The position numbers and the translations under genes are program-made. Shown here piece after piece: positions 12,844 to 61,490 of a stretch of DNA of 64,000 bases. Positions within the stretch are counted from its first letter, which is position 1. Every line of letters starts with the position of its first letter. The notes beneath the pieces were generated by a model. The model worked only from the letters and a program-made list of their open reading frames with translations. It did not search any database and was not told the DNA's origin. This stretch comes from a virus (taxonomy: Duplodnaviria > Caudoviricetes), in IMG/VR virus record IMGVR_UViG_2912765049_000001, positions 1-64,000 of that record, one strand, 5' to 3'.

Positions 12844-13746
12844 CTACTTGCTGTGCTCGAGGGCGCCGTGCGGGACGTAGCCCTTGCCGTCGCAGGCGGA
12901 GCAGGCGGCGACGCTGGCCTCAGCCACCTGCTCAAGCCAGTACTCGACCTGCTGCTCCCACTCGGCGAGCGCGGCGTCGTAGTTCTCCCCGTACACGGCG
13001 GCGGGCACCGGAAGGTCGACGCTGCGGTCGACGGTGACCTGGACGGTGCGCCCGGACTTCAGCGGCTGCCCCCTGCGCCCCGTGTTCCGGACGAAGGTGG
13101 TCCTGGGCTGGTCGTAGGGAACGCGGACCGTGATGTGCAGCCCGGGCCTGTCCTTGTAGTCGACGAAGCAGTACTTCACCCGCGGCATCGCCGTGATGAG
13201 CTTCTCCAAGTGCTGCTTCAGGCCCGGAATGTGGCCAGGGAAGAGGTGCCGGTACTCCGCACGCTGGGTCAGCTCGACAGGAAGGGCAGCGCGCCACTGC
13301 GGCTCGTCCGGCGCCGGGGGCTGGCGGCCCTCGAGCAGCATGAACGGCCCCTCGTAGACGTGTTCGACGGGCTCGAGGTCCTCGGTGACGCGCTCGTACA
13401 GGCCCCAGTACTCGTCATGGTCGCCGACGCGCTCGTTGAAGTCCTCGACGCTGAGCTCGGCCGGGTACCGCGTCGACAGCGCCGTGGGGTCGCTCAGCTT
13501 GTAGCGGAGCGTCTTGGGGTTCGGCTGGTAGACGGCGGTGATCCGCTGGGCGTGCCGGTCGGTGACGTACCAGTCGCCCTTGGCGTCGACGAGCGGCACC
13601 AGGCGGTTCATCGGCTCGCCGTCGGCGAAGATGCCGCTGCGCAGTCCGGGGCGCCGCTCGGGCTCGGGCAGGTAGTACGCGAACCGGCCGTCGGGCAGGC
13701 GCAGGGCGTAGCGGGGCAGGGTGGTCACGGGTGCGTGGCCTTTCAT
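12844..13746 (-). CDS. hypothetical protein with C-terminal CxxCxGxG motif
   Basis: long GC3-biased ORF, ATGA overlap. Confidence 0.75.
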   Translation of the reverse strand: MKGHAPVTTLPRYALRLPDGRFAYYLPEPERRPGLRSGIFADGEPMNRLVPLVDAKGDWYVTDRHAQRITAVYQPNPKTLRYKLSDPTALSTRYPAELSVEDFNERVGDHDEYWGLYERVTEDLEPVEHVYEGPFMLLEGRQPPAPDEPQWRAALPVELTQRAEYRHLFPGHIPGLKQHLEKLITAMPRVKYCFVDYKDRPGLHITVRVPYDQPRTTFVRNTGRRGQPLKSGRTVQVTVDRSVDLPVPAAVYGENYDAALAEWEQQVEYWLEQVAEASVAACSACDGKGYVPHGALEHSK

Positions 13747-27390: not shown

Positions 27391-27964
27391 TACTCCACCT
27401 TCTTCCGGCAGGCTTCTTCGGGTTCACACGGTTCGGCCGCCGGTGGCCTCCGTGCCGAGCCAGAGTGTCAAGATCCACCTGGATGCACCAGGGGGCAGGG
27501 TCAACTTGTCAACAAAGTGATGTTCGGGGCAAGGACCTCGTGACGCTCTCCGGCAGATATGTGGGGGCGCCCCCACGTACGTGAGCTGCCGCGTCCGATG
27601 TTGCCGACAAAGAACACGCACCGCCGTACGAAGGGGCGCCAGAGACCCACCAGGGAGGTGCGCACACCCCCCGGTGACACGGGGAGTGTATCGCGCGTTG
27701 GTTCCAACCAACACTGATCTTTGGTTTTGTGATGGTTGAGAGTGGGGAAACACGGCGAACACGCCGCCCGGCCTCTCCCCCGGCCGCCGGAGTGATTGCC
27801 CCGCAATCACCGAACTCCCCGCCCTTGCCGCGGACTGCGCCACGGCCCGGCCGCCGAAACGACCGGGCCGTGGCGCGTGCGTGATTGCGGGGCAATCACT
27901 TCCTCGTCCTGCAGGCGACGTTCGCCCCTCTCCCCCCGTGGGTGATTGCCCCGCAATCACCCGC

Positions 27965-28816
27965 CTACTTCGAGATCCGCTTGAATCCCAGGCCCTTGGC
28001 CACCGAGAGGTAGTCGGCGGTGGCCTCGCCGGCGCGGTCGAAGTAGAGCAGCGGCTTCTGGTGGGCGTATGACTCCGGGATCTTCGTCGAGCGGCGGATG
28101 CCCGGCAGGACCAGGTCCCCGTATGCCTCCTCCACCATCTTCTTGCCGTCGTCCCAGACAGCTCCCTGGGAGCGGGTGGTGGGAACGTCCACCAGGAGCA
28201 CGCCGACCAACTCGGCGTGGGCTCCGTACTCGCCCCAGGTCTCCTTCACCAGCTCGATCTTCTGCTCGATGCGGGTGAGGCCGCGGAGTTCCTTCAGGCC
28301 GGGCTTGATGCATGCGACGATCTCGTCACTGGCCAGGATGGCGCCGATCACGACCAGGCCGAGGTTCCCGGGGCAGTCGATGATGATGACGTCGTAGTCG
28401 CCCTTGATGGGGGCGAGCAGGTTCTTCAGCCACAGCTCGCGGGCCATGGCCGTCGTCAGATGCTGCTCGGCGTTCTCCATCTCGTGCGATCCGAGCACCA
28501 GATACAGGTTGTCGATGACCTTCGTGTCGGGCCCGCCGAGCGGACCGGCGAGGGCCGGCACGATCGCCTCCGAGAGCTTCACGCTCTTGTCGGTGAGGCA
28601 GTCATAGATGGTCTTCTGGTCCTCGAGCTGGTCGGGGAAGGCGTAGCCGAGCTGGTACGACGCGTCGCACTGGTCATCGCCGTCGACGACCAGAACCTTC
28701 CAGCCGAACTCGGCCAGCTGCGCGCCGAGGTTCACGCCTGAGGTGCTCTTGCCGGACCCCCCGACCTGGTTGGTCATCGAGATGATCCGGGGAACGCGTT
28801 CTGCCTGGACGGTCAT
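27965..28816 (-). CDS. parA: ParA family partition ATPase
   Basis: NQVGGSGKST, VLVVDGDDQCDAS, YDVIIIDCPGNLG and IRRSTKIPES motifs; GGAG RBS. Confidence 0.92.
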   Translation of the reverse strand: MTVQAERVPRIISMTNQVGGSGKSTSGVNLGAQLAEFGWKVLVVDGDDQCDASYQLGYAFPDQLEDQKTIYDCLTDKSVKLSEAIVPALAGPLGGPDTKVIDNLYLVLGSHEMENAEQHLTTAMARELWLKNLLAPIKGDYDVIIIDCPGNLGLVVIGAILASDEIVACIKPGLKELRGLTRIEQKIELVKETWGEYGAHAELVGVLLVDVPTTRSQGAVWDDGKKMVEEAYGDLVLPGIRRSTKIPESYAHQKPLLYFDRAGEATADYLSVAKGLGFKRISK

Positions 28817-29153
28817 GGAGATCTCCACAGTGATTGCCCCGCAATCACGCACGGGATCCTGGCGGGGGAGTGGCGGAGCACCAGGAGGCATCGTGCCGGC
28901 GTGTGAAGGGCTGAGTGAGTACGAGTTCCTGCCGTGTCGTCCGCCTGAGCCGTCAGGTCCGCTGACGGAACATCGGGGAGTGAAGTGATTGCCCCGCAAT
29001 CACCCGCGTGCGCGGGGCCGACGCGGTGAGAGCGTGGCAGGCACGGTAGGAAGGGGAATGCTGGGGCGCACGTTATCGCGCCAGGCAGGAAAAACGCCAG
29101 TCGCCCCGCCGAGAAATCACTCGACGAGGCGACTCGTGGAAAGCGGCGGCGCT

Positions 29154-30416
29154 TCAGTCGCTCAGGATGAGCTCCTGCAGCTCCTCGAACTCGGCAGGGG
29201 AGAGGCGCTCCTTGAGACCGGTGTAGATGTCCTTCACCGTGGTCACGGCGATGACGCCCCGGTCCGAGACCGTGGCAACCGTCCCCGCAGGCTGCTGATT
29301 CTCCGTTTCGGCGGACGACTGCGCACCCCCGTTGGAGCCGGTGGTGGTGGTATCCGGCAGGTTCTGTGGCGGCTCTCCGGTTCCCGTCTCGGGCTTCTCG
29401 GAGGAATCCCCGGTCTGCTCGCCCTCCCCTGTCTCGGTGTTCCGCTGGGAGGGGAACGTGTTCTGCTCGGTGCCCGCGGGCTTGTTCTCCCCGCCGCCTT
29501 CAGCGCCGTTGCCGGACTCCTGCTGCTGGCCGGTGCCGCCGTCCCCAGTGGTCTCCGGCTGGGACTGCTGCGCGGAGCCGCTCTCGCCGGCCCCGGTCTC
29601 CTGCTGGTTGGTGCCGGACTCCGGCTCCTTGGTCTGCTCGGACGGAAGTTGCTGCTGCTCCAGCGGCACCTTGCTCTTGACGATGACCTCGGCGTCGTCG
29701 AAGGACAGCGTGCCGTCGACGTACGCCTGCTGGAGGTCCTCGCGCAGGCCGGCGAGAACGGTGGCGGCCTCCTTGATGGGCAGCAGCCGTTCCCCGCCGA
29801 ACTCGAACTCGAGGCCCCGCTGCCGGCACCAGTGGTCGATGACCGCCTGCTGCAGCGGCTCGATGAGGCTCAGGAGCTTGATCTTGTGGGAGATGGCCGT
29901 CTGCGACGTCCCCTTCCCGAGGCGCTTCGCGAGCTCCCGCTGAGAGATGCCCAGCTCGTCGAGCGCAGCCTGGTAGTCGGCACCCTGCTCAATGGGGTCC
30001 AGTCCCAGCCGCTGCTCGTTCTCCTTCATCGCGGCGATCCGCAGCGAGCCGTTCTCCGACACGGTCTTGCGGATGAAGACCGGCACCTTCTCCAGCCCCC
30101 GCAGTTTCGCGGCGGCCAGTCGGCGGTGGCCGTGCAGAACGACGAAGGGCTTGCCGGACTTCGCGACGTGCTCGCGGTGCTTCGGATAGTGCTTGACGTA
30201 CGCCTCGGCAGTGACGACGGTCAGCGCCTGGACGACTCCGTCTTCGTCGTAGGAGTCGGCAAGCCCCTCGACGTTACGGAGCCGCTTGCGGCCGTTCTCT
30301 GGGCTGGGCAGCAGGTCCTCAACGGGAAGTTCAGACGTCCCCTTGTTGAACAGGCGCTGTTGTTCTGCTGCCGCTCGGTGGGTACCGAGACTGACGTTGT
30401 TTGGCATTCCGGCCAT
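29154..30416 (-). CDS. parB: ParB family partition protein
   Basis: GVVQALTV, LHGHRRLAAAK (CTP-binding GxxR box), ENEQRLGLDPIE, HTH SQRELAKRLGKGTSQTAISH; long acidic linker. Confidence 0.92.
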   Translation of the reverse strand: MAGMPNNVSLGTHRAAAEQQRLFNKGTSELPVEDLLPSPENGRKRLRNVEGLADSYDEDGVVQALTVVTAEAYVKHYPKHREHVAKSGKPFVVLHGHRRLAAAKLRGLEKVPVFIRKTVSENGSLRIAAMKENEQRLGLDPIEQGADYQAALDELGISQRELAKRLGKGTSQTAISHKIKLLSLIEPLQQAVIDHWCRQRGLEFEFGGERLLPIKEAATVLAGLREDLQQAYVDGTLSFDDAEVIVKSKVPLEQQQLPSEQTKEPESGTNQQETGAGESGSAQQSQPETTGDGGTGQQQESGNGAEGGGENKPAGTEQNTFPSQRNTETGEGEQTGDSSEKPETGTGEPPQNLPDTTTTGSNGGAQSSAETENQQPAGTVATVSDRGVIAVTTVKDIYTGLKERLSPAEFEELQELILSD

Positions 30417-30849
30417 CGGGTCTCCGGGGGAGGTGGTGCTGATGTAGTGGGTCTCAGCCGCGAGCTTATCCGTCGGCACGGGGCGGCCGGAGGGGTGGCG
30501 TCCGATACGGGCGCGCACTGTGTCCGAGATGAGCAGAAATGCACCCTGCGGCGGTGGGTCCGGCGGGAAGTCGTGGACGGCGCAAGGTGATTGCGGGGCA
30601 ATCACTGCGGAGCGAGATCGGCGGCCTCGGCTGGCTCGTCCGCGCTCAGTATGCCCTCTGCAGCGGCGCGTTGGGGCGCAGACACCGCGACGAGGTAGAC
30701 CGGCTCCTGGAATATCTGCTCCGGGATGGCCGGCCGGGGGTAGGTGTCGCGCGGCCGGGGTGATTGCGGGGCAATCACTGCACCGGGACGGCGGGGGTCA
30801 TGCAACGGCGCGTTCTGCACTCGGGGTCCTTCTCTCTCGGCCCGCGTCA

Positions 30850-31635
30850 TCAAGGCGCGGGGTCGCTGGGTGTGGAAGCACGGGCTGCGGCGGCCTTCTG
30901 CCGCCGGGCCTCTCGCAGGGCCCGGGCGTGGGTGTCGGCCTTGCGCGCCCTGTCCTCCTCGAGGCTCTGCTGCAGGTACTGCGCCTCGACGTGGTCGTCC
31001 GGGTCCGCCTGGATCCGCATCCGGGTGAGCGGCACGTACGGGGTGCCGCGGGCCGCGTCGCGCTGGGCCTTCTCTTCCCGCAGCCGCTCCCGGACCTGGG
31101 CGTAGTCGGACGTCGGTTGAGTCCCGGGCGGCTGGGAGCGGGTCGGCGGGGAAGGCGCGGGCTCGGCAGCGGACGGTTCCGGTGCGGACGCCGGTCGGTG
31201 GACTCCCTTGCGGACCTTGATGGTGGTGAGCGTGCCCGGCTTCAGCGCACGGTTCACGTCGTCGCACAGCTGCCGGGAGACCAGTGACAGCATCCGTGCC
31301 CAGGAGTCCGACTCGCACACGACGGTCAGGGTCTTCGTCGTCTCGTCGTACTTCACGGCGTGCCAGTGGGCTGCGCGGTCCTCGCCGATGATCGACGGCC
31401 ACTGGTTGAGGAGGCTGCCGCCGTCGGCGGCTTCTTCCCAGCCGTTGTCGACGAGCCACTGCTTCCAGATGCTGCCCAGGGACAACGGGTCGCGTCCGTC
31501 GTAGCGGCGCCGGCGTATGGTCCGCTTCGGCTTGGGCGCCTGCTGATTCCCCTGCCGACGGGCCGCCTCCTTCGCCTGGCGCAGGGCAATGCGTGCCAGG
31601 TCGGCACCGCTTGCGGGAGGCACATCCGTCGTCAT
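30850..31635 (-). CDS. dciA: DciA (DUF721) helicase-loader family protein with C-terminal extension
   Basis: DLARIALRQAKEAAR, GRDPLSLG, GW, LLNQWPSIIGEDRAAH and LTVVCESDSWARML closely follow actinobacterial chromosomal DUF721/DciA. Confidence 0.85.
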   Translation of the reverse strand: MTTDVPPASGADLARIALRQAKEAARRQGNQQAPKPKRTIRRRRYDGRDPLSLGSIWKQWLVDNGWEEAADGGSLLNQWPSIIGEDRAAHWHAVKYDETTKTLTVVCESDSWARMLSLVSRQLCDDVNRALKPGTLTTIKVRKGVHRPASAPEPSAAEPAPSPPTRSQPPGTQPTSDYAQVRERLREEKAQRDAARGTPYVPLTRMRIQADPDDHVEAQYLQQSLEEDRARKADTHARALREARRQKAAAARASTPSDPAP

Positions 31636-31949
31636 CGCGCCCCCGGGAGTGATTGCCCCGCAATCACCTCGGCCGACGCGGGGGAGGGTGATTGCCCCGC
31701 AATCACTCCGGGCCCGGCCTCCGGGTCGCCCTCCAGGGCTCGAGGTGATTGCGCGGCAATCACCGGCGGCGGGGCTGCGGCCAGCACGGTGGGGCAGCGC
31801 CACTCGCTCCGGCAGGCCGAGCACACGGTCCGCCCCTCGGTTTCGACGGGGACGTGCAGGGCGAGCGCGGCACGCAGGCGGCCCAGTTCGGCGAGAAGGT
31901 CGTCCAGATCAGGGTCCGTTATCGAGCTGGCCGTGAGGTGGCGGGACAT
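31632..31949 (-). CDS. small Zn-binding protein coupled to dciA; its 3' end carries three palindromes
   Basis: LH.P......CSAC...WRCPT motif; AGGAG RBS; ATGA overlap with dciA. Confidence 0.6.
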   Translation of the reverse strand: MSRHLTASSITDPDLDDLLAELGRLRAALALHVPVETEGRTVCSACRSEWRCPTVLAAAPPPVIAAQSPRALEGDPEAGPGVIAGQSPSPASAEVIAGQSLPGAR

Positions 31950-31972
31950 GTGGAGTCTCTCCTGACGCGCTG

Positions 31973-33325
31973 TCAGTGCAGGCGGATGCGGGGGTTGTTG
32001 GCGTTGGCGTGGAGCTTCTGGCACAGGTCGACCAGCTCCGGCCCGTACAGCGCGACCGCGACCTGCGGGCCGGCCAACTCGTACGTGGCCAGCACCAGCC
32101 CGGGGTCGCCGTCGTACTTGTAGGCGGCCCACGCCTCGGCCCGCATTCGCTTACGGGTCTCTTCGTCGAGGTCCTCGAGGCCCGCACACTGCGGGTAGTC
32201 GTCGTCCTCGGCCTGCCGCTCGCGGGTCTCCTGCACCGCCGCGGCGAAGTCGGGATTCGGCGCGACCGCGTTGGCCCAGTCCTGCTGCAGCTGGGCATCG
32301 CCTTCGCGGACGGCCCGCTCCCGCAGCAGCCAGCTAGCGATGTACGTGTGGGGCCGGGTCGGCCGCCAGTCCAGGCCGGCCACGACCGAGGGCGAGATGT
32401 CCCGCAGCCAGACGTCGACCTGCTGCTCGGTGCATCCCTCGGCGAGCTTGTCGACCAGCACCCACGACAACTCGCTGATCTTGGCTCGCTGGGTCCAGTT
32501 GTGCAGCGGGCGCAGTCGGCGAGCGAGACGGTCGGCGGCCTGGAACAGGGCAGCGGTCACCTTGTGGCCCAGGGTGCTCGTCTTCGGCGGCTTGATCCTC
32601 GAGGCCCGCGCGCTGCGCGTAGCTTTCTCTTTCCCACCATCAACATCAGCAGGTACGTGGGCGGAACCACCACGAGAAGGGGGCGCAAGGCGCCCCGCAG
32701 CCGACTCCTTCGCCTTCGCCACAGCCTGCTCCCGGCCGGCCTCCGTGAAGCCGATGACCGTCGCCTCGTAGCCGGTGCCTCGTAGCCGGTGGCCCTTGGC
32801 GGCGTCGTACGCGAGCGGGATGGTCGCGCCGTAGATCGTGGCGGTGGCGGTGTACTTCCGGCCCGGCAGACGCAGGTTGCGCTTGGAACCGTGCTCGAGC
32901 CAGACCAGGGCGCCGAGTTCGCGGAGGTACGCCACGTGCCGCTTCACCGTGGACTTGTCCACCTTCAGCTTGGCCGCGGTGCCCAGGAGGTCGTACAGGA
33001 CGATGCCCCGCCGGTAGTCCATGCGGGCGGCCAGGTCCATCGCCACGCGCATTGTGGTGAGGGTGGCCTTCGGGTGGAGCTTCGCTTCGAAGATCAGCCA
33101 GTCCAGCGCGACCAGCCAGTCGCGCGGCTCGCAGCGGCGCGAGGCGGTGTGCATGACGTCCTGGGCGCTGCCGCGGACCAACTCGAAGCGGTCGCGCGCG
33201 GCCTCGGCCGACGGCGTGGAGGGGTCAGGTTTGGGCGCAGATGTGTCGCCCGCAGGGGTGGTGAAGGGCTCGACACTCCCCATTTGGGCAGGGTCGAGCT
33301 GACAAACGGCAGCGCTGTGCTGCAT
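31973..33325 (-). CDS. putative replication initiator, winged-HTH protein
   Basis: LLGTAAKLKVDKSTVKRHVAYLRELGALVW wHTH; heads the dciA-parB-parA unit; role inferred from context. Confidence 0.6.
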   Translation of the reverse strand: MQHSAAVCQLDPAQMGSVEPFTTPAGDTSAPKPDPSTPSAEAARDRFELVRGSAQDVMHTASRRCEPRDWLVALDWLIFEAKLHPKATLTTMRVAMDLAARMDYRRGIVLYDLLGTAAKLKVDKSTVKRHVAYLRELGALVWLEHGSKRNLRLPGRKYTATATIYGATIPLAYDAAKGHRLRGTGYEATVIGFTEAGREQAVAKAKESAAGRLAPPSRGGSAHVPADVDGGKEKATRSARASRIKPPKTSTLGHKVTAALFQAADRLARRLRPLHNWTQRAKISELSWVLVDKLAEGCTEQQVDVWLRDISPSVVAGLDWRPTRPHTYIASWLLRERAVREGDAQLQQDWANAVAPNPDFAAAVQETRERQAEDDDYPQCAGLEDLDEETRKRMRAEAWAAYKYDGDPGLVLATYELAGPQVAVALYGPELVDLCQKLHANANNPRIRLH

Positions 33326-34107
33326 TATGGGCTCGTCGTCCTCTCCGGAGGGCGGCAAAACGAGACCCCTCCTGGGGGCTCATTTGCCTTTCGAAGCACG
33401 AAGGGGGCGTGAAAACGGCCTCTCGGAAGTGCTTCTGAAGGTGGGTGTTTGAGCAGTAACCCGCCCCTGTGATGGGCGGTGAAGTCCCGAACGGCCGAGT
33501 AGCGACCGGGCGATCGGGCCCTAGTGGGAAGTGCAGGCGGGCACCTGAACTGACCACCGTTGGAAGTGGCCGCGCGTGGCTCGACTGGTTGACGGGCAAT
33601 CAACTGGTCGGCGAACAGCGGCCGGCGGAGGGTTCCGTGATTGCGGGGCAATCACCTCCGCGGCAGACCTACGTCATGCCAGCCCCCCTTCGGGGGAGGA
33701 CCTGGCCATCCCTTTTCCGCTGCGAGATCACGCCGAAGACGGCGCCGCCGGTGCGGAATCGAGGAAGAAGAACAGTCCGAGACATGCCAAGACCTGCCCT
33801 CGGGCGTGGCGCGTATGCGCTGCCCGGGTGGGTCCTCATGTGCCGTGCACTGGATGCACGGGTACGATGGCTCATGCCTCGGCCGTCCCAACACGGTCTC
33901 GGCGCTTTTTCGGCCCTCGTTACCCCGGCGTCCACTCCGGGGGTGGCGGGGGCCATAAGCGTTTTCGGACTAGTGCGGCCACCGGATCCGTGATCCCCAA
34001 ATATGGCCAGGGCTGAGCCTACCTCTGCGACCGCGTGGATTGCGACCACCTTCACTCCGACGTGTCGCATCGACTTTTCGCAGGTGTTCACGGCGTTTTC
34101 CTTCCTG

Positions 34108-34557
34108 TCAGGCTGCCGCAGCGGCAGGGGCGTTGGTGGTGTCGCCGGTCGCGGCGCGACGGCGGTTGCGGGCCTGGGTGCCGGCGGCCCGGCAGGGCTC
34201 GCAGGGGCAACGGCGCTTGGTGTAGCTCGACTCCGTGCCGTGCTGGTCGACCTGGAGCTCCGGCCCGGCCGCGCGCCGCGCCTGCTTGCCTGCTTTCTGA
34301 GCGAGCGTCAGGGCTGCCGCGAACACCGAGTCGTGCTGGCGCAGGTTGTACACCGGGGTCCTCGACAGCCCGGCCGATGCTGCGGCCTCGGCCACCGTGG
34401 CACCCCGGCTGATGTCGGTGAGCAGCTGCTCGATCTGCTCCGGGTTGGTCAGGGCCGGCGGCCGGCCCCGGCCGCGCCGCACCGGTACAGCGGGTGCGGC
34501 GGTGCGCGGCTCGTCGTCCGCGGGCGCCGGGCGCAGGGGGAGGAGGGCCGTCGTCAC
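34108..34557 (-). CDS. HTH protein with AT-hook-like RGRGRP and C-terminal HGT/CxCxxC motif
   Basis: GATVAEAAASAGLSRTPVY; HGTESSY...CPCEPCR. Confidence 0.7.
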   Translation of the reverse strand: MTTALLPLRPAPADDEPRTAAPAVPVRRGRGRPPALTNPEQIEQLLTDISRGATVAEAAASAGLSRTPVYNLRQHDSVFAAALTLAQKAGKQARRAAGPELQVDQHGTESSYTKRRCPCEPCRAAGTQARNRRRAATGDTTNAPAAAAA

Positions 34558-35156
34558 GCGGCGGCCTCCAGCTCGGGGCCGGACGGCCGCTCGCCGGAGA
34601 TTCGCTTGGCGGCCTCCTCGAGGAGCGCGGGCACCGTCAGCTCGTCGGAGTGGAAGCCGAGCTGCTCGCACATCTGGGCGTACACCCAGCGGACGTTGGG
34701 GTAGGGCCGCTTCATCGTCTCGGCCGCGGCCCGCAGGTCCGGCTGCTCGGCCAGGGCCTGCAGCAGTGACGCCTGCGCCGGGGAGGGCTCCCAGTTCTCC
34801 GTCGGCTGGGGCCGCTTGTCGCCCTGGCGGGCGAGCCGGGCGCGCCGCTTCTTCTGTGCCCGGCGCTCCGCACGGCGTTCGTCGGCGGTCATCCCGCCCC
34901 ACACGCCGTCGGACTCCCACCATCCGCTGCCGCCGAGGGCGTAGGCGCGGCAGGCCGCCAGGACCGGGCAGCCGCTCAGGCAGACCTTCTTGGCGTCCCG
35001 CTCGTTGGCGGCACCGGGCGTGTAGAAGAGGTCCGGGTCGATGACGAACTCGCCGAGTTCGTCGGTGACCGCGCACAACCGCAGCGGCCAGTTCGGGTGG
35101 GCTTCGAGTTCGGAGAGGGCGGCGTTCTGGTCGGGGCTGAGCATGTCGATCCTCAC
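34554..35156 (-). CDS. WhiB family transcriptional regulator
   Basis: LC...PDLFY...AKKVCLSGCPVLAACRAYAL...GVWGGMTADER. Confidence 0.9.
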   Translation of the reverse strand: MRIDMLSPDQNAALSELEAHPNWPLRLCAVTDELGEFVIDPDLFYTPGAANERDAKKVCLSGCPVLAACRAYALGGSGWWESDGVWGGMTADERRAERRAQKKRRARLARQGDKRPQPTENWEPSPAQASLLQALAEQPDLRAAAETMKRPYPNVRWVYAQMCEQLGFHSDELTVPALLEEAAKRISGERPSGPELEAAA

Positions 35157-35422: not shown

Positions 35423-36688
35423 TCATGCCGCCAGCCCGAGGGGTTCGAGTTCCTGGCCGGTGATGAATTCGAAGGCCATCGCCCCCAGGTCGCGGGCGAT
35501 GTTGCCGGTGACGGCATTGCCGACCATCGAGATCAGCTGCTTGTCGCGGTCCTGCTTCTTCTCGGCGGTGGCGATCAGCTCGTAGTCGGCGGGGAAGGTC
35601 ATGGCGACCTTCCGTTCGTCGATCGTCACGAGCCGGGCGTGCCGATCGCGGACGTCGGCAGCGGTTCCGCTGACCCACAGGTGGTGGTTGCCGCCTGCGG
35701 TCAGCGTTGACAGGGGCCGGCTGGTGGGCCGGTGCGTGGAGCCGCCACCCCGCAGCTCGGCGATGAACGGGGCGCCGCCGTACTTGAGGTGCCCGTCCTG
35801 GATCTTTCGCCAGGTGTTCGCGTTGTGCGGGCGGAGGTAGCGGTCGCCGATCAGCGGGCCGGGGTTGGAGAAGTCCAGGACCTCGGCGATCGGGCGCAGC
35901 GCGTACGGCTCCAGGTCCACGGTGGCGCACGCCTTGTGAGGGCAGCGCCAGGTGTACTGGGAGATGTACTTGCCCCACGGCCGCTGCGGCGAGCAGGAGT
36001 CCGTCAGCTTCCAGCTCTGCAGCGCCTGCACCTTCCCGTGCCGGGCGCACACCACGAGCGGGCGCATCCACTTGTCGAAGTTCGGCGTGCGGCCGACGGA
36101 CTCGTGCCACAGCACGACGTACATGCGGTCCCGGCTGGTGTGCGCGGCCGGCCCGTAGGCGGCGGCGTGCGCAGAGTTCGCGTAGACGATGCGGTGGCGG
36201 TAGCCCCACGCACGCAACTGGGCGAGCCACGCGTTGAAGGCGGCGCCCTTGTTGTGCTTCGGCCCCCACAAGCGAGCCTCGACCACGTTCTCCACGACGA
36301 TGAACAGGTACTGGTGGAACTCAGCGAACCTCGGGACACAGTGCATGGTGGCCCGCGAGCGGATGGCGGTTTCGTCGGCGCCGGTCGTGGAGAACAGGCC
36401 GTCGACGAACTCGCCCTGCAGCCGCGGCTGGCCCTGCGCGACGGTGTGGTGAGTGCATTCCGGGCTCGACCACAGCGCGTGGGTCCGCGGCCACGCCGAC
36501 GGCACCACCTGCGAGAGGTCTGCCAGGTGCACCCGGACATGCTGGTGGTTGGCCTTGTAGGTGGCCGTGCAGTGTGCGGCGTGGTTGCCGGCCTGGACGA
36601 CGACCGTGCCGGGCACCTGCTCGAGGCCCCCGGGCACACCCCCGCCCCCGCCGAACTGGTCGCTCCACGTCACGGCGAACGCTGCCAT
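35423..36688 (-). CDS. orphan C5-cytosine DNA methyltransferase
   Basis: motif I DQFGGGGG, IV WSSPECT, VI VENVVE, VIII TSRDRMY, X VGNAV. Confidence 0.9.
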   Translation of the reverse strand: MAAFAVTWSDQFGGGGGVPGGLEQVPGTVVVQAGNHAAHCTATYKANHQHVRVHLADLSQVVPSAWPRTHALWSSPECTHHTVAQGQPRLQGEFVDGLFSTTGADETAIRSRATMHCVPRFAEFHQYLFIVVENVVEARLWGPKHNKGAAFNAWLAQLRAWGYRHRIVYANSAHAAAYGPAAHTSRDRMYVVLWHESVGRTPNFDKWMRPLVVCARHGKVQALQSWKLTDSCSPQRPWGKYISQYTWRCPHKACATVDLEPYALRPIAEVLDFSNPGPLIGDRYLRPHNANTWRKIQDGHLKYGGAPFIAELRGGGSTHRPTSRPLSTLTAGGNHHLWVSGTAADVRDRHARLVTIDERKVAMTFPADYELIATAEKKQDRDKQLISMVGNAVTGNIARDLGAMAFEFITGQELEPLGLAA

Positions 36689-37521
36689 CAGGCCGCCTCC
36701 GCTCGCCGGTTGGCCCGCGCGAACGCCTGGTCGACCGCGGCCTTCGTGACCCCGATCCGCTCGGCGGCCTGCTGCCGGGTGTACCCGCACGTCTCCATCA
36801 GCCAGGAGATGTCCTCGACGAGCGCGGCCGTCCGGGTCGCGCGGGCTCCGAGGTCGGGGACTGCCGCCGGGTCGTCGATCGACTCGTCGTCCCAGGCGAG
36901 GGGGGAGGGCCATCCGGCTGCCGCGGCGCGCGCCAGGGTACGGGTGATGCCGCGGGCGGTGGCGCCGAAGGCGCGCGGGTCCGCGTTCCACGCCCGGTCG
37001 TACAGGGCGGCCACCCGCTGAGCCATGCCCACGGTGACGGTGGCCTGGCTGAGCATGGTGTGGAAGTTCATCGGGTGCATATCCAGCTCACCGGCCAGCA
37101 CCGCGTTGGGGAAGCCCATCGCCCCCAGCGCCCGCACGCGCCGTAATGAGCCGGTGGCGTCGATCGGTATCCGGGAGGGCGGCGCCGCCGGGTCGGCACG
37201 CAGGACCAGGAGCGCCCGGGCGTGGTGGGCGCGGATCTGCTGGGAGGGCGCCCTCCCCAGTGAGGGCCGGCCGTACAGCAGTCGCTCGAGGACGCCGTGC
37301 GACATGCAGGCGGCCGTGGCGAGGTGACGGCGCTGCATCCCGGCCTCCATGAGCCCCCGCACGTGGGTACGCACAGGCTCGGCGTCGACATACGGCTGCC
37401 ACCGCCGAAGGATGATCTGCTTCTGCCGGTTGGCGACGTACGCGGCGTTGGCAGCGCGGCAGATCGGGCACCGGCACCCCTCGCGCTTGTACTTCGCGTA
37501 ACCGTGCTCGCGGTCGGCCAC
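36688..37521 (-). CDS. actinophage-type multi-HTH protein ('PLAWDD' family), paralog of 18036-18971
   Basis: HGYAKY...CRCPICR, AEPVRTHV, DATGSLRRVRAL and PSPLAWDDESIDDP motifs; TTA codon at 37144-37146. Confidence 0.75.
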   Translation of the reverse strand: MADREHGYAKYKREGCRCPICRAANAAYVANRQKQIILRRWQPYVDAEPVRTHVRGLMEAGMQRRHLATAACMSHGVLERLLYGRPSLGRAPSQQIRAHHARALLVLRADPAAPPSRIPIDATGSLRRVRALGAMGFPNAVLAGELDMHPMNFHTMLSQATVTVGMAQRVAALYDRAWNADPRAFGATARGITRTLARAAAAGWPSPLAWDDESIDDPAAVPDLGARATRTAALVEDISWLMETCGYTRQQAAERIGVTKAAVDQAFARANRRAEAA

Positions 37522-53420: not shown

Positions 53421-53678
53421 TCACGCTTCCCGGTGGATCACCAGGCCGCCGTCCTTCGTCCAGGTCCGCAGCGGTTCCCGCACCCCGCCGGCCTCCGCCC
53501 ACAAGGTGATCGTCACCCCGGCCATGCTGCCGTGCGAGCCCACGAAGCCGAGGAACTTCTCCAACGCCACGGCGCCGTCCGTCCACGTGCCCGTCACGGC
53601 CGGGCCGTCCTTCCGGAAGGTCACCGCGACATGGAACTCCTCGGCCTCGACCGGCTGTCCGGGGGCGGGACCGATCAC
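53421..53678 (-). CDS. small protein coupled to the recombinase
   Basis: GTGA overlap with the recombinase stop. Confidence 0.6.
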   Translation of the reverse strand: MIGPAPGQPVEAEEFHVAVTFRKDGPAVTGTWTDGAVALEKFLGFVGSHGSMAGVTITLWAEAGGVREPLRTWTKDGGLVIHREA

Positions 53679-54862
53679 TGCTGGGCCGCCTCGGCGCGCC
53701 GCTTCTCCGCCACCTTGTGCCAGGGGTTCTCCGCCCTCGTCTGGGCGCGGTCCAGGTACTCCTTCTTGACCGTGGCGGAGCCCTCTTTCCACCGGCCCTG
53801 CTTGGTCGGGTCCCCGCCCGCGTCCGCGATCTCCTGAGCGCCGCCGCGCCGCAGCCCGTGCGCGGTGATCTTGTGCCAGTCCTTCAGGCCCGCCTTGTAC
53901 GCCCGGCCGCGTACCCAGTCGTTGACGGCGTCGCCGGTGACGTAGTCGCCCCGCAGGGTCGCCGTGGACCGGTTCTGTAGCGTGCCGGCCGACGTCAGGG
54001 CGCGCAGCAGCGGTCCGTTGCGGACGCCGAGGCGGTGCAGGCAGTTCAGCCAGTCCCGTACGGCCTCCACCGGGTCGTAGAGCGGGTTGTCCGGGTCCGC
54101 GGGGATCCACGTCTCCTGGCCCTCGGCCGCCTGGTCTGTTTTGGAGAAGGCGACCCACTCGGCGATGCCGTCCTCCTCGACCTCCACGTCCTCGATGTCC
54201 AGGTCGGCCAGCTCGATACGCCGGTTGAGCGCGGCCCGGCCGATCAGCAGCGCGCACCGGTCCCGCAGGCCGATCGGGTGGCGCAGGTCGCAGGTGCCGA
54301 CCATGGCCTCCAGCATCGGCCGGGTGATGGGCGGCGCCTTGCGGACCCGGTTGCGCTTGCCCCAGTCCTTGCGGTGCTCGTTGAGCATGCCGCGGGCCTC
54401 GGTGTTGTCCGGCTTCAGGTCCGGCGGCATCCAGGTCCGGACGCCGCTCATGTAGGTGCTGATGGTGTTCGGGGACATGTCCCGGGCGATCATCCCGGCG
54501 ACCCACTCGACGTACGTCGCCGTCGTGCACGGCCGGGCGACTCGCCCCATGGCCTCGCACCACTCGGCGAACAGGCGCCGCTGGTTGGTGTAGTTGCGGT
54601 TGGTGTTCTTCGGCTTGGACTTGTTCTGCAGCCGCTCGGCGGTCGCCGGGGACACCTCGAAGTCGCGCCGCGTGTACGAGGGGGCGTCTGCCCGGGTCGC
54701 CAGGTCCTGGCCGGGGTAGAGGATCGTGTGTCGGTCCACCGGGGGCTTGGCGGGTGCCGCCGGGGTGAGGGTGGTGGGCAGCAGTTCGTCGTCGACGATC
54801 TCGGCGTCGACCACCTCGACGACTTCGAGGTCTGCGCCTTCGGTGTCGTGGGCCGTGGTCAT
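53675..54862 (-). CDS. tyrosine recombinase (Cre-like integrase/resolvase)
   Basis: RDRCALL...NRRIEL, SKTDQ, HGLRRG, GRW, KEYL: complete R-K-H-R-W-Y set. Confidence 0.92.
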   Translation of the reverse strand: MTTAHDTEGADLEVVEVVDAEIVDDELLPTTLTPAAPAKPPVDRHTILYPGQDLATRADAPSYTRRDFEVSPATAERLQNKSKPKNTNRNYTNQRRLFAEWCEAMGRVARPCTTATYVEWVAGMIARDMSPNTISTYMSGVRTWMPPDLKPDNTEARGMLNEHRKDWGKRNRVRKAPPITRPMLEAMVGTCDLRHPIGLRDRCALLIGRAALNRRIELADLDIEDVEVEEDGIAEWVAFSKTDQAAEGQETWIPADPDNPLYDPVEAVRDWLNCLHRLGVRNGPLLRALTSAGTLQNRSTATLRGDYVTGDAVNDWVRGRAYKAGLKDWHKITAHGLRRGGAQEIADAGGDPTKQGRWKEGSATVKKEYLDRAQTRAENPWHKVAEKRRAEAAQQ

Positions 54863-60319: not shown

Positions 60320-60746
60320 GCCGTAAGTCCGTTCCTTCGGGGCGGGCGGAATTACCCGCCGCGTTTTCGGGTGGCCAGGAACGTAGCTCGCCCTCGGGAA
60401 CAACATCAACGGCCTCTGAAAAAACGTGAATTCGGCATTCTACGGGGATATCGAGTGCTCTTTCGGACGCGGCCTCGCCGCCCGCGCCCAGGCTCGTCAC
60501 CACAGGTGGATGGCCTACGGCCGTCACCCCCGACAGCTTCCCCAGGTTCATCCTGTCCCAGGTTCGTCGGCAACCGTTTCCACCCGTGGGCCGCTGGAAT
60601 TTTCCACCCGTGGCCGCGCCGAAACCCCCGTACTCAGCCCCTGCTCCTCGGCTTTAGCGAGCCCACTTCTGAGAAAAAAGCGGAGCCAGCGCCAAGGCGG
60701 CCCGAAACCCGTTGAGCTGCCCGCCGCACCAGTGCCAAGGTGGCTC

Positions 60747-61490
60747 ATGAGCAAGAAGAACGTCCGGGTGCCGGACGACAGCGAACTCGTCCGGCTGGCT
60801 GCCGCGGCATGTGAGAGCGCCGCGAGCAAGCTGGAGGCGGCCACGCTGCTGCTGGGAGCGGAGCAGTGGGCGGAGGCGTTCTACAACGCCGCCCTCGGCT
60901 TCGAAGAACTGGGCAAGGCGCACCTGTGCCTGACCGTGGTGATGATCCCCACCCAGTACCGCAGCGACGTGACGCCTCGGGAGTTCTCCGAGATGTTCAA
61001 CGGCCACGGCGCCAAGGCGGCCTTCGGGCACCTCGTGCTGCGCAGCCTGGTCGACCGGGACGCACCGGTCGCCGTGACCGACATGCTGGCCGAGGCCGAA
61101 GCGGCGGCCGCGCAGACCAACACCACCAAGTTCCGGGGCCTGTACGTCGACCTGGGCGCAGACGGCACGCTGCTGCACCCGAGCGACGTCGTGGAGAGCG
61201 ACGCCCGCTGGATGGTCGACCGACTGCAGACACTGCACGAGTGGATGGGCCCGATGTGCGCCGAGGCCGGCCGGGACCCCGACTTCCTGGCGTTCTTGGT
61301 CCAGTTCCGGGAGAACATTGACGCCGACGCGATCGCGGACGCCCTCGTGGCCGACCCGGAAGACTGGCTGCGCCAGCTGCGCGCTGCGGTCCAGGCCCCG
61401 TTCACGGCACTGCCGTCCTGGATGTCCGACGCCCTCCTGGCTCTCCCAGGTACGGCAGAGCTGTCACGCAGCGAGGCCGCGCAGCCCTGA
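60747..61490 (+). CDS. AbiV family abortive-infection protein (HEPN-like)
   Basis: A..LL......A...A.LGFEELGKA, H..K, N..KFRGLYVD. Confidence 0.85.
   Translation: MSKKNVRVPDDSELVRLAAAACESAASKLEAATLLLGAEQWAEAFYNAALGFEELGKAHLCLTVVMIPTQYRSDVTPREFSEMFNGHGAKAAFGHLVLRSLVDRDAPVAVTDMLAEAEAAAAQTNTTKFRGLYVDLGADGTLLHPSDVVESDARWMVDRLQTLHEWMGPMCAEAGRDPDFLAFLVQFRENIDADAIADALVADPEDWLRQLRAAVQAPFTALPSWMSDALLALPGTAELSRSEAAQP

What the first reader, a model, noticed from the sequence alone, without database searches (positions are those of the whole stretch)
30850..33325. Element-encoded DciA helicase loader co-oriented with a putative initiator
Seen: 30850-31635 follows actinobacterial DUF721/DciA motif by motif and adds a ~110-aa C-terminal extension. 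It lies two genes downstream of a large wHTH protein. Known: DciA is the ancestral DnaB loader, normally chromosomal in the dnaA-dnaN-recF-dciA-gyrB cluster of actinobacteria, whereas mobile elements more typically use DnaC- or lambda-P-type loaders. Inference: the element carries its own DciA to recruit host DnaB to a Rep-bound origin, possibly through the extension.
Basis: partly seen in the sequence, partly recalled or inferred. Interest (0 to 1): 0.8.

Follow-up and report, generated by a model that had tools for sequence, protein, structure and literature searches.

The report
Phage-plasmid copy of helicase loader DciA
A 152-kb Streptomyces phage-plasmid carries its own diverged copy of the bacterial helicase loader DciA beside a DNA-binding protein and partition genes, probably to borrow the host's replicative helicase. 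Plasmid-borne DciA copies in Streptomyces were already reported in 2016, and their function is still untested.

Summary
Window 30850-31635 (- strand) encodes a 261-aa DciA: Pfam PF05258 at 54 bits against a cut-off of 24. It is 42% identical to the host's own recF-linked DciA, has a DciA-like fold, and carries a ~115-aa C-terminal extension.

The element is contig C2, 152 kb. It is a phage-plasmid with capsid, terminase and tape-measure genes. No DnaB-type helicase was found on it.

ParB and ParA follow. Eleven copies of a 19-bp palindrome, absent from the chromosome, lie in and around the four-gene block.

The finding is not new in kind:
- Brézellec et al. 2016 described plasmid-borne dciA-like "tra3" genes in Streptomyces.
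- tblastn finds homologues on 190 plasmid records, many already annotated as DciA family or DUF721 proteins.
- The phage-plasmid pZL12 has the same module.
- Two first-reader notes from this scan describe the same module in other genomes.

My tree reproduces a single plasmid clade sister to the chromosomal one.

New details:
- The C-terminal extension is conserved across the plasmid clade.
- The winged-helix partner is conserved in part of the family.
- A 740-bp conserved non-coding region lies upstream.

Loading of host DnaB is plausible but untested. The partner's role as initiator is weaker, because its homologues also occur alone among chromosomal housekeeping genes.

The parts
30850..31635 (-). 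Plasmid-clade dciA (261 aa): N-terminal helix, KH-like DUF721 core, disordered linker, three-helix C-terminal extension
   Evidence: PF05258 at 54.4 bits, full profile. 42% identity to the chromosomal DciA. AF2 model and Foldseek top hits are DciA 7ykm and 8a3v. Homologues are 260-296 aa long, which supports the ATG at 31635.
31973..33358 (-). Winged-helix protein (called P0002 in this report), 450-461 aa; likely start is the ATG at 33325. It has a wHTH at residues ~76-184 and a C-terminal helical domain. It is the putative initiator or regulator.
   Evidence: No Pfam family. AF2 pLDDT 78.6. Only generic winged-helix fold matches at Z 6-8. Homologous to pZL12.20c (E 3e-48) and to the pFRL2 HTH protein (HHalign 99.7%).
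33359..34110 (.). Conserved 740-bp non-coding region upstream of P0002, with an invariant long-range 16-bp inverted repeat, one perfect palindrome and one degenerate copy. Candidate origin or regulatory leader.
   Evidence: No ORF with coding-type GC3. 72-80% nucleotide identity to four relatives (55% to the most distant, L026), as high as the adjacent coding gene. No Rfam hit. No net covariation.
29154..30416 (-). parB (ParB_N and HTH_ParB domains plus a long low-complexity tail); start probably the ATG at 30416
   Evidence: Pfam and NCBIfam hits; start position.
27965..28816 (-). parA (Walker-type partition ATPase); start probably the ATG at 28816
   Evidence: AAA_31 at 127 bits and CbiA; start position.
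27792..33655 (.). Eleven perfect copies of the 19-bp palindrome GTGATTGC-N3-GCAATCAC, starting at 27792, 27881, 27942, 28830, 28985, 30587, 30760, 31649, 31688, 31745 and 33637. They lie in the non-coding stretches before each of the four genes and downstream of parA. Candidate parS or operator sites.
   Evidence: 13 perfect copies on C2 and none on the 9.6-Mb chromosome. In relatives they occur only where the ParAB pair is also kept. One copy ends 13 nt upstream of the dciA ATG and another 13 nt upstream of the parA ATG.

Best explanation
Contig C2 is a ~152-kb Streptomyces phage-plasmid. Its plasmid-state maintenance block reads, in order of transcription: conserved non-coding region, winged-helix protein P0002, dciA, parB, parA. 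The dciA is a member of the plasmid ('Tra3') clade of DciA. This clade is sister to the chromosomal Streptomyces DciA and gained a conserved three-helix C-terminal extension. The most likely mechanism is that this DciA binds the host's DnaB hexamer through the retained KH core and N-terminal helix, as chromosomal DciA does, and delivers it to the element's origin. That would let a large element that encodes no replicative helicase replicate without depending on DnaA/oriC-coupled loading. The C-terminal helices are the obvious candidate for an element-specific contact, with P0002, with origin DNA, or as a second DnaB contact. The origin most likely lies in the conserved 740-bp region upstream of P0002. 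The 19-bp palindromes are most likely ParB sites that double as operators for dciA and parA. Shown here: family membership, fold, clade, synteny, no helicase found on the element, and conservation of the extension and of the non-coding region. Inferred: DnaB binding, loading at the element's origin, the role of P0002, and the role of the extension.
For: DciA membership by HMM, fold and alignment. Residues invariant in both the chromosomal and plasmid clades (D12, A14, R15, L18, R48, W79, L103, S109) argue for a retained core function. No DnaB_C, AAA_25, D5_N or PolA match lies on C2, and none of the 58 of about 150 ORFs screened against Pfam is a helicase. The host has one DnaB and its own recF-linked dciA. 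The module P0002-(small ORF)-DciA-ParA/B recurs in pZL12 and pFRL2 and in 31 of 80 genomic loci that hold a P0002 homologue. tblastn finds DciA homologues on 190 PLSDB plasmids. About 18% of 401 Streptomyces genomes hold a second PF05258 copy. The extension motifs are conserved across the whole plasmid clade and fold into confident helices. The upstream non-coding region is as conserved as the coding DNA.
Against: No experiment on any plasmid-clade DciA was found in four literature searches. Branches in the plasmid clade are long, which Brézellec et al. read as relaxed selection. No iterons or DnaA-box cluster were found near the module. P0002 matches only generic winged-helix folds, and its homologues also occur without DciA among chromosomal housekeeping genes. 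C2 also carries a Prim-Pol gene 31 kb away, if the contig is circular, that could belong to another replication system. SCP1 and pSCL4 hold P0002-like genes, yet their mapped or predicted origins lie elsewhere.
Confidence: 0.5

Rival explanations
1. The DciA copy is a helicase loader for the element, but P0002 is not the initiator. P0002 would be a transcriptional regulator or nucleoid-type DNA-binding protein. Initiation would depend on something else: the Prim-Pol gene, an RNA from the conserved non-coding region, or host factors.
For: Only generic winged-helix matches. No iterons. DciA-less P0002 homologues lie beside phosphoglucomutase, nucleoside phosphorylase, oxidoreductase and ECF sigma genes in chromosomes. 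A stand-alone Prim-Pol lies at C2:150796-151401. The + strand of the conserved region folds with z = -2.7.
Against: P0002 and DciA are adjacent and co-oriented in pZL12, pFRL2 and 31 of 80 loci, including nearly all of the closest relatives with enough flanking DNA. An ESM Atlas neighbour cluster is auto-named 'Replication protein', which is a lead only. There is no covariation support for an RNA.
Confidence: 0.25
2. The DciA copy is a host-takeover or regulatory factor. It would sequester or modulate host DnaB, for example to shut down chromosome replication or to redirect helicase during the lytic cycle. It would not be a dedicated loader at a plasmid origin.
For: The element is a phage-plasmid. 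The clade evolves fast. The added C-terminal helices could alter how DnaB is handled. In M. tuberculosis, DciA changes DnaA-DnaB complex formation (PMC5720831).
Against: The gene sits in the par/maintenance block under the same palindromic sites as parA, not in the structural or lysis region. The same clade occurs on many plasmids where no phage genes are known, such as SAP1 and pFRL2.
Confidence: 0.12
3. The gene serves conjugal transfer or establishment, as the historical name Tra3 suggests. It might, for example, restart replication after TraB-type double-stranded DNA transfer.
For: Older annotations call it 'Tra3-like'. C2 has an FtsK/TraB-like gene.
Against: The FtsK-like gene lies about 90 kb away. 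The dciA gene is linked to parAB and P0002, not to transfer genes. No evidence was found behind the name.
Confidence: 0.08
4. The gene is a drifting paralogue with no important function.
For: Long branches. Brézellec et al. remarked on relaxed selection.
Against: The clade is widespread, the ORF is intact, the core residues are invariant, and the extension has conserved motifs and confident helices.
Confidence: 0.05

Closest known systems
Plasmid-borne dciA-related 'tra3' genes of Streptomyces (Brézellec et al. 2016, Nat Commun 7:13271, Supplementary Fig. 4)
   Same: A PF05258 gene on an extrachromosomal element. The host keeps a recF-gyrB-type chromosomal dciA. The gene falls in one clade with SAP1, pFRL2 and pZL12, sister to the chromosomal Streptomyces DciA.
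   Different: That paper gives no function, partner gene or domain analysis. Here the conserved C-terminal three-helix extension, the P0002 partner, the par linkage and the phage-plasmid host element are described.
Streptomyces phage-plasmid pZL12 (GQ919031), genes pZL12.20c-16c
   Same: The same module: P0002 homologue (35% identity, E 3e-48), Tra3/DciA, ParA and ParB, with DNA methylases upstream, on a tailed-phage genome kept as a plasmid.
   Different: pZL12 is 90 kb and has a 139-aa ORF between the two genes and the order parA-parB. C2 is 152 kb, has no intervening ORF and has the order parB-parA. Zhong et al. 2010 mapped a 'repA' replication locus in pZL12. I recall this from memory, the paper was not held, and I could not check which ORF it is.
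Chromosomal actinobacterial DciA (M. tuberculosis Rv0004; this genome's C1 copy)
   Same: N-terminal helix motif G-x-DLAR-x-AL, the DGRDP motif, the KH-like DUF721 core and both conserved tryptophans. 42% identity.
   Different: Not next to recF. About 85 residues longer, with a helical C-terminal extension. Faster evolving. Presumably not essential to the host.
V. cholerae DciA (PDB 8a3v; cryo-EM DnaB6-DciA3, NAR 2026 gkag977)
   Same: KH-like core (Foldseek probability 1.00). A helical C-terminal element follows a disordered linker, as in the DnaB-binding 'lasso'.
   Different: No detectable sequence similarity in the extensions. Whether the plasmid extension binds the DnaB linker-helix/docking-helix module is unknown.
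Phage and plasmid helicase loaders of the DnaC/DnaI/lambda P type
   Same: The proposed job is the same: an element-encoded factor that delivers host DnaB to the element's origin.
   Different: An unrelated fold with no AAA+ domain. Here the loader comes from the host's ancestral loader, whereas DnaC/DnaI are the phage-derived loaders that replaced DciA in some bacteria.

Membership tests
DciA / DUF721 (PF05258) | Match to the PF05258 profile above the gathering score | tested here: met
   54.4 bits against 24, profile positions 1-89 of 89; 57.2 bits in the six-frame genome search.
DciA / DUF721 (PF05258) | KH-like core fold as in solved DciA structures | tested here: met
   The top Foldseek hits of the AF2 model are D. 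radiodurans DciA DUF721 (7ykm, E 2.2e-4, TM 0.75, rmsd 1.5 over 71 columns) and V. cholerae DciA (8a3v, probability 1.00). RbfA and the DnaA N-terminal domain follow.
DciA / DUF721 (PF05258) | No AAA+ ATPase domain | tested here: met
   PF05258 is the only Pfam hit.
DciA / DUF721 (PF05258) | Conserved N-terminal segment before the KH core and a conserved tryptophan in the core | tested here: met
   D12, A14, R15, L18, R48 and W79 are invariant across the chromosomal and plasmid sequences, and W112 is retained in the window's protein. Which tryptophan equals M. tuberculosis W113 was not determined.
DciA / DUF721 (PF05258) | Binds DnaB and promotes its loading | not testable with these tools
   Needs pull-down and loading assays, or a complex prediction.
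Chromosomal actinobacterial dciA (dnaN-recF-dciA-gyrB class) | Located directly downstream of recF near oriC | tested here: not met
   The window's gene is on C2 between P0002 and parB. The recF-linked copy is at C1:4623978-4624508.
Plasmid 'Tra3' clade of DciA (Brézellec 2016) | On a plasmid, the host also has a chromosomal dciA, and the gene groups with the other plasmid copies | tested here: met
   Separate 152-kb contig. The plasmid clade has SH-aLRT 93 and includes SAP1, pFRL2 and pZL12; the window lies in a 43-sequence subclade with support 99.
Phage-plasmid (pZL12-like) | Tailed-phage structural genes and plasmid partition genes on one extrachromosomal replicon | tested here: met
   Tape measure, major capsid protein E and large terminase; ParA and ParB. 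Virion production is not testable here.
Iteron-type winged-helix plasmid initiators (RepA/RepE/Pi, Rep_3) - for P0002 | Rep-family HMM match or specific fold match, with iterons next to the gene | tested here: inconclusive
   No Pfam or NCBIfam Rep hit. Staphylococcal RepA and RctB domain 1 appear only at Z ~6 among many regulators. No iterons in 33359-34110.
ParABS partition system | Walker ParA, ParB with an HTH, and repeated centromere sites | tested here: met
   AAA_31 at 127 bits; ParB_N and HTH_ParB. Thirteen plasmid-specific 19-bp palindromes that co-occur with ParAB in relatives. Binding was not tested.

The most novel reading that the evidence does not exclude
P0002, the plasmid-clade DciA and the conserved 740-bp region together form a self-contained replicon shared by large families of Streptomyces phage-plasmids (~90 kb and ~140-150 kb) and linear plasmids. 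In it, a captured host loader gained a three-helix C-terminal adaptor that couples the element's origin-binding protein to host DnaB. This would be the first mobile-element helicase loader of the ancestral DciA type, and the mirror image of the phage-to-host domestication of DnaC/DnaI.
Probability: 0.35. Interest if true: 0.6.

Novelty: new member of a known kind. Interest (0 to 1): 0.4.

Why it matters
DciA is the ancestral, ATP-independent DnaB loader, and its mechanism is only now being resolved. A natural, non-essential, fast-evolving paralogue on phage-plasmids, with an added helical module and a fixed partner gene, would be a convenient genetic handle. It could be used to ask which DciA surfaces contact DnaB and how a loader is targeted to a particular origin in actinobacteria. 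It would also show how large Streptomyces elements that encode no helicase replicate, and could provide parts for Streptomyces vectors. If the copy proves dispensable, the case is simply one more annotated paralogue.

Tried and rejected
- **PLSDB, close relatives:** a megablast of the module found none. A blastn of the conserved non-coding region found only one weak 80-bp match.
- **Solved structures:** a sequence search with the single DciA protein found nothing.
- **Rfam:** no hit on 33200-34300.
- **RNA structure:** RNAalifold on either strand of the conserved region gave positive (unfavourable) covariation terms, so I make no RNA claim.
- **GC skew:** it follows gene orientation and does not locate an origin.
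- **DnaA boxes and iterons:** none clustered near the module.
- **Papers not held:** Zhong 2010 on pZL12, Zhang 2006 on linear-plasmid replication genes, and Blaine 2022 on DciA diversity. I therefore could not check whether the mapped pZL12 'repA' is the P0002 homologue.
- **Records not in the collection:** pSLA2-L and SCP2. The idea that RepL2 or RepII are DciA-like was therefore not tested.
- **Wasted search:** the 'repL1/repL2' text search returned only unrelated papers.
- **SAP1:** the ORF upstream of its DciA is not a P0002 homologue.
- **Palindromes as Rep iterons:** judged less likely than ParB sites, because relatives that keep P0002-DciA but lack ParAB nearby also lack the palindromes.
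- **Annotation gap:** the 150-aa ORF at 34108-34560 and many other C2 ORFs have no Pfam match.
Full report
**What is there**

The window is bases 1-64000 of contig C2, a 151,949-bp contig at 71% G+C. The same assembly holds a 9.62-Mb linear chromosome with 93.9-kb terminal inverted repeats, so the organism is a Streptomyces. A locus 99% identical to the window's lies in Streptomyces muensis DSM 103493. Third-position GC analysis puts the real genes of 20-39 kb on the - strand.

In order of transcription the block reads:
- a WhiB-family gene at 34554-35147 and a 150-aa ORF without a Pfam match at 34108-34560;
- a 740-bp non-coding region at 33359-34110;
- a 450-461-aa protein with no Pfam family at 31973-33358, called P0002 here;
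- dciA at 30850-31635;
- parB at 29154-30416;
- parA at 27965-28816.

**The DciA call**

- The 261-aa product matches PF05258 over the entire profile at 54.4 bits, against a cut-off of 24.
- It is 42% identical over residues 9-141 to the genome's own DciA, which sits directly downstream of recF on the chromosome.
- An AlphaFold2 model built on a 40-sequence alignment gives an N-terminal helix (10-30), a KH-like core (53-143, pLDDT ~90), a disordered linker (146-175) and three confident helices (176-196, 216-233, 235-254).
- Foldseek ranks the D. radiodurans DciA DUF721 domain (7ykm) and V. cholerae DciA in complex with DnaB (8a3v) first.
- In the alignment, D12, A14, R15, L18, R48, W79, L103 and S109 are invariant across the chromosomal and plasmid sequences.
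- The C-terminal extension carries motifs (Y178-x2-R-x2-LR, RIQ-x-P-x2-H-x-EA, D-x-H-x-RAL-x2-AR) that are shared even by the most distant plasmid-clade members. The chromosomal proteins end at the conserved tyrosine and lack the extension.

**The element**

C2 is a phage-plasmid, not a generic plasmid.
- It encodes a 1732-aa tape-measure protein, a major capsid protein E and a large terminase.
- It also encodes an FtsK/TraB-like protein, endonuclease VII and an ATP-dependent ligase; DUF5131, an AAA_24 ATPase and a Y-family polymerase fragment; and an RNase T-type exonuclease and an integrase-like protein.
- Whole-genome searches place no DnaB_C, AAA_25, D5_N or family-A polymerase match on C2.
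- None of the 58 of about 150 C2 ORFs screened against Pfam is a helicase. This set includes essentially all ORFs of 300 aa or more.
- The one replication-type enzyme found is a stand-alone Prim-Pol at C2:150796-151401.
- Relatives on 139-164-kb contigs carry the same capsid gene on the same contig as the module.

**Prior knowledge**

Brézellec et al. 2016 state that dciA is almost exclusively chromosomal, with one instance of mobility in Streptomyces. Their Supplementary Fig. 4 describes plasmid-borne 'tra3' genes as a single clade in strains that also keep a chromosomal dciA.

tblastn finds homologues on 190 PLSDB plasmids, 182 of them Streptomyces. These include SAP1 and pFRL2, and many are already annotated 'DciA family protein' or 'DUF721 domain-containing protein'. 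Of 401 Streptomyces genomes sampled, 399 have PF05258 and about 71 have two or more copies (this sample includes the unpublished genome G129).

My tree of 94 domain sequences reproduces the published picture. One chromosomal Streptomyces clade (support 93) is sister to one plasmid clade (93) that contains SAP1, pFRL2, pZL12 and the window's gene, with much longer branches. Loci from the unpublished genomes G414 and G406 were left out of the tree.

Four literature searches found no functional study of a plasmid-clade DciA. Two first-reader notes from this scan, on other genomes, describe the same wHTH-DciA-parAB cluster in phage-plasmids. They led me to pZL12.

**The partner gene**

- P0002 has no family assignment. 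Its model (pLDDT 78.6) shows a winged helix at ~76-184 and a helical C-terminal domain.
- Fold matches are generic, at Z 6-8. Replication-linked winged helices (RctB domain 1, staphylococcal RepA, DnaD-N, MCM-WH) are mixed among many transcription factors.
- It is homologous to pZL12.20c (35% identity, E 3e-48; HHalign probability 100%) and, distantly, to the HTH protein two genes upstream of the pFRL2 DciA (HHalign 99.7%).
- pZL12 has the order P0002-like, 139-aa ORF, Tra3/DciA, ParA, ParB.
- Among 80 genomic loci holding a P0002 homologue, 31 have a DciA gene immediately downstream on the same strand. These include nearly all of the closest relatives with enough flanking DNA.
- The remaining loci are stand-alone. 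The four sampled lie beside phosphoglucomutase, nucleoside phosphorylase, oxidoreductase, ECF sigma and methyltransferase genes in large contigs or chromosomes.

So the pairing is a real, recurrent module. But the family is not restricted to replicons, which weakens the reading of P0002 as a dedicated initiator. An ESM Atlas neighbour cluster auto-named 'Replication protein' is only a lead. From memory, Zhong et al. 2010 mapped a 'repA' locus in pZL12. The paper was not held, and the GenBank record labels no repA.

**Cis elements**

The 19-bp palindrome GTGATTGC-N3-GCAATCAC has 13 perfect copies on C2 and none on the chromosome. Eleven of them lie in the non-coding stretches before each of the four genes and downstream of parA. 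One copy ends 13 nt upstream of the dciA ATG and another 13 nt upstream of the parA ATG.

In relatives, the same or a co-varying palindrome occupies the same positions only where the similar ParAB pair is present. P0002-DciA loci without ParAB nearby have none. I therefore read the palindromes as ParB centromere/operator sites rather than Rep iterons.

The 740-bp region upstream of P0002 has no coding signal. It is nevertheless 72-80% identical to four relatives (55% to the most distant, L026), which is as high as the adjacent coding DNA. It contains long invariant blocks and an invariant 16-bp long-range inverted repeat. It has no Rfam match, no net covariation on either strand, no iterons and no DnaA-box cluster. 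The + strand folds with z = -2.7. It is the best candidate for the origin or a regulatory leader, but this is inference.

**Mechanism and verdict**

The best-supported reading is that this is the plasmid-state maintenance module of a phage-plasmid. Its DciA paralogue loads the host's DnaB at the element's origin, and ParABS sites bracket and probably regulate the block.
- The retained core residues, the lack of any helicase found on the element, and the tight linkage to par and to P0002 support a replication role.
- The conserved helical extension is the natural candidate for an element-specific contact.

None of this has been tested in any member of the clade. P0002's initiator role is the weakest link.

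The finding is a correct annotation of a new member of a clade that was already reported and is already annotated in public plasmid records. The useful added detail is the conserved extension, the partner gene, the conserved non-coding region, the par palindromes and the phage-plasmid context.

Noticed in passing
window 27792-33655, plus 40039 and C2:149213: A 19-bp palindrome, GTGATTGC-N3-GCAATCAC, has 13 perfect copies on the 152-kb element and none on the 9.6-Mb chromosome. Eleven copies bracket P0002, dciA, parB and parA. Relatives keep it, or a co-varying form (TGATTGG...CCAATCA), only where ParAB is also present.
   Followed up: partly
window 33359-34110: A 740-bp non-coding region is as conserved between related elements as the neighbouring gene. 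It has invariant blocks and a 16-bp long-range inverted repeat (GGCTCATGCCTCGGCC ... GGCCAGGGCTGAGCC). It has no Rfam family and no covariation support. It may be an origin, a leader or an RNA.
   Followed up: partly
C2:88008-108181 (loci L104, L105): The contig carries tailed-phage structural genes (1732-aa tape measure, major capsid protein E, large terminase), so the 'plasmid' is a phage-plasmid. Relatives on 139-164-kb contigs share the capsid gene.
   Followed up: partly
C2:150796-151401 (L107:16796-17401, -): A stand-alone 201-aa Prim-Pol domain protein (98.8 bits). It is the only recognisable primase or polymerase-type replication gene found on the element, and could belong to a second, possibly lytic, replication system.
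   Followed up: no
loci L033-L087 (for example L036, L046, L055, L087): A DciA-less subfamily of P0002 homologues, often annotated 'cell wall protein', sits alone in chromosomal housekeeping neighbourhoods (phosphoglucomutase, nucleoside phosphorylase, oxidoreductase, ECF sigma). Both genes of the plasmid module therefore have chromosomal relatives.
   Followed up: partly
window 34554-35147 (-) and 35423-36991 (-): A WhiB-family regulator (52.8 bits) and a C-5 cytosine DNA methylase lie just upstream of the module. pZL12 likewise has methylases upstream of its module.
   Followed up: no
window 60426-61490 (+), 12844-13746 (-), 53675-54862 (-): An AbiV-type HEPN protein (47 bits), a weak match to the Gabija anti-defence protein Gad1 (21.7 bits, below cut-off) and an integrase-like protein (22.4 bits, below cut-off). 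These look like defence and counter-defence cargo.
   Followed up: no
proteins P0183-P0301: Homologues of the pZL12 P0002-like protein sit on dozens of contigs of about 86-92 kb from many Streptomyces species. This suggests a large, little-described family of pZL12-like phage-plasmids.
   Followed up: no
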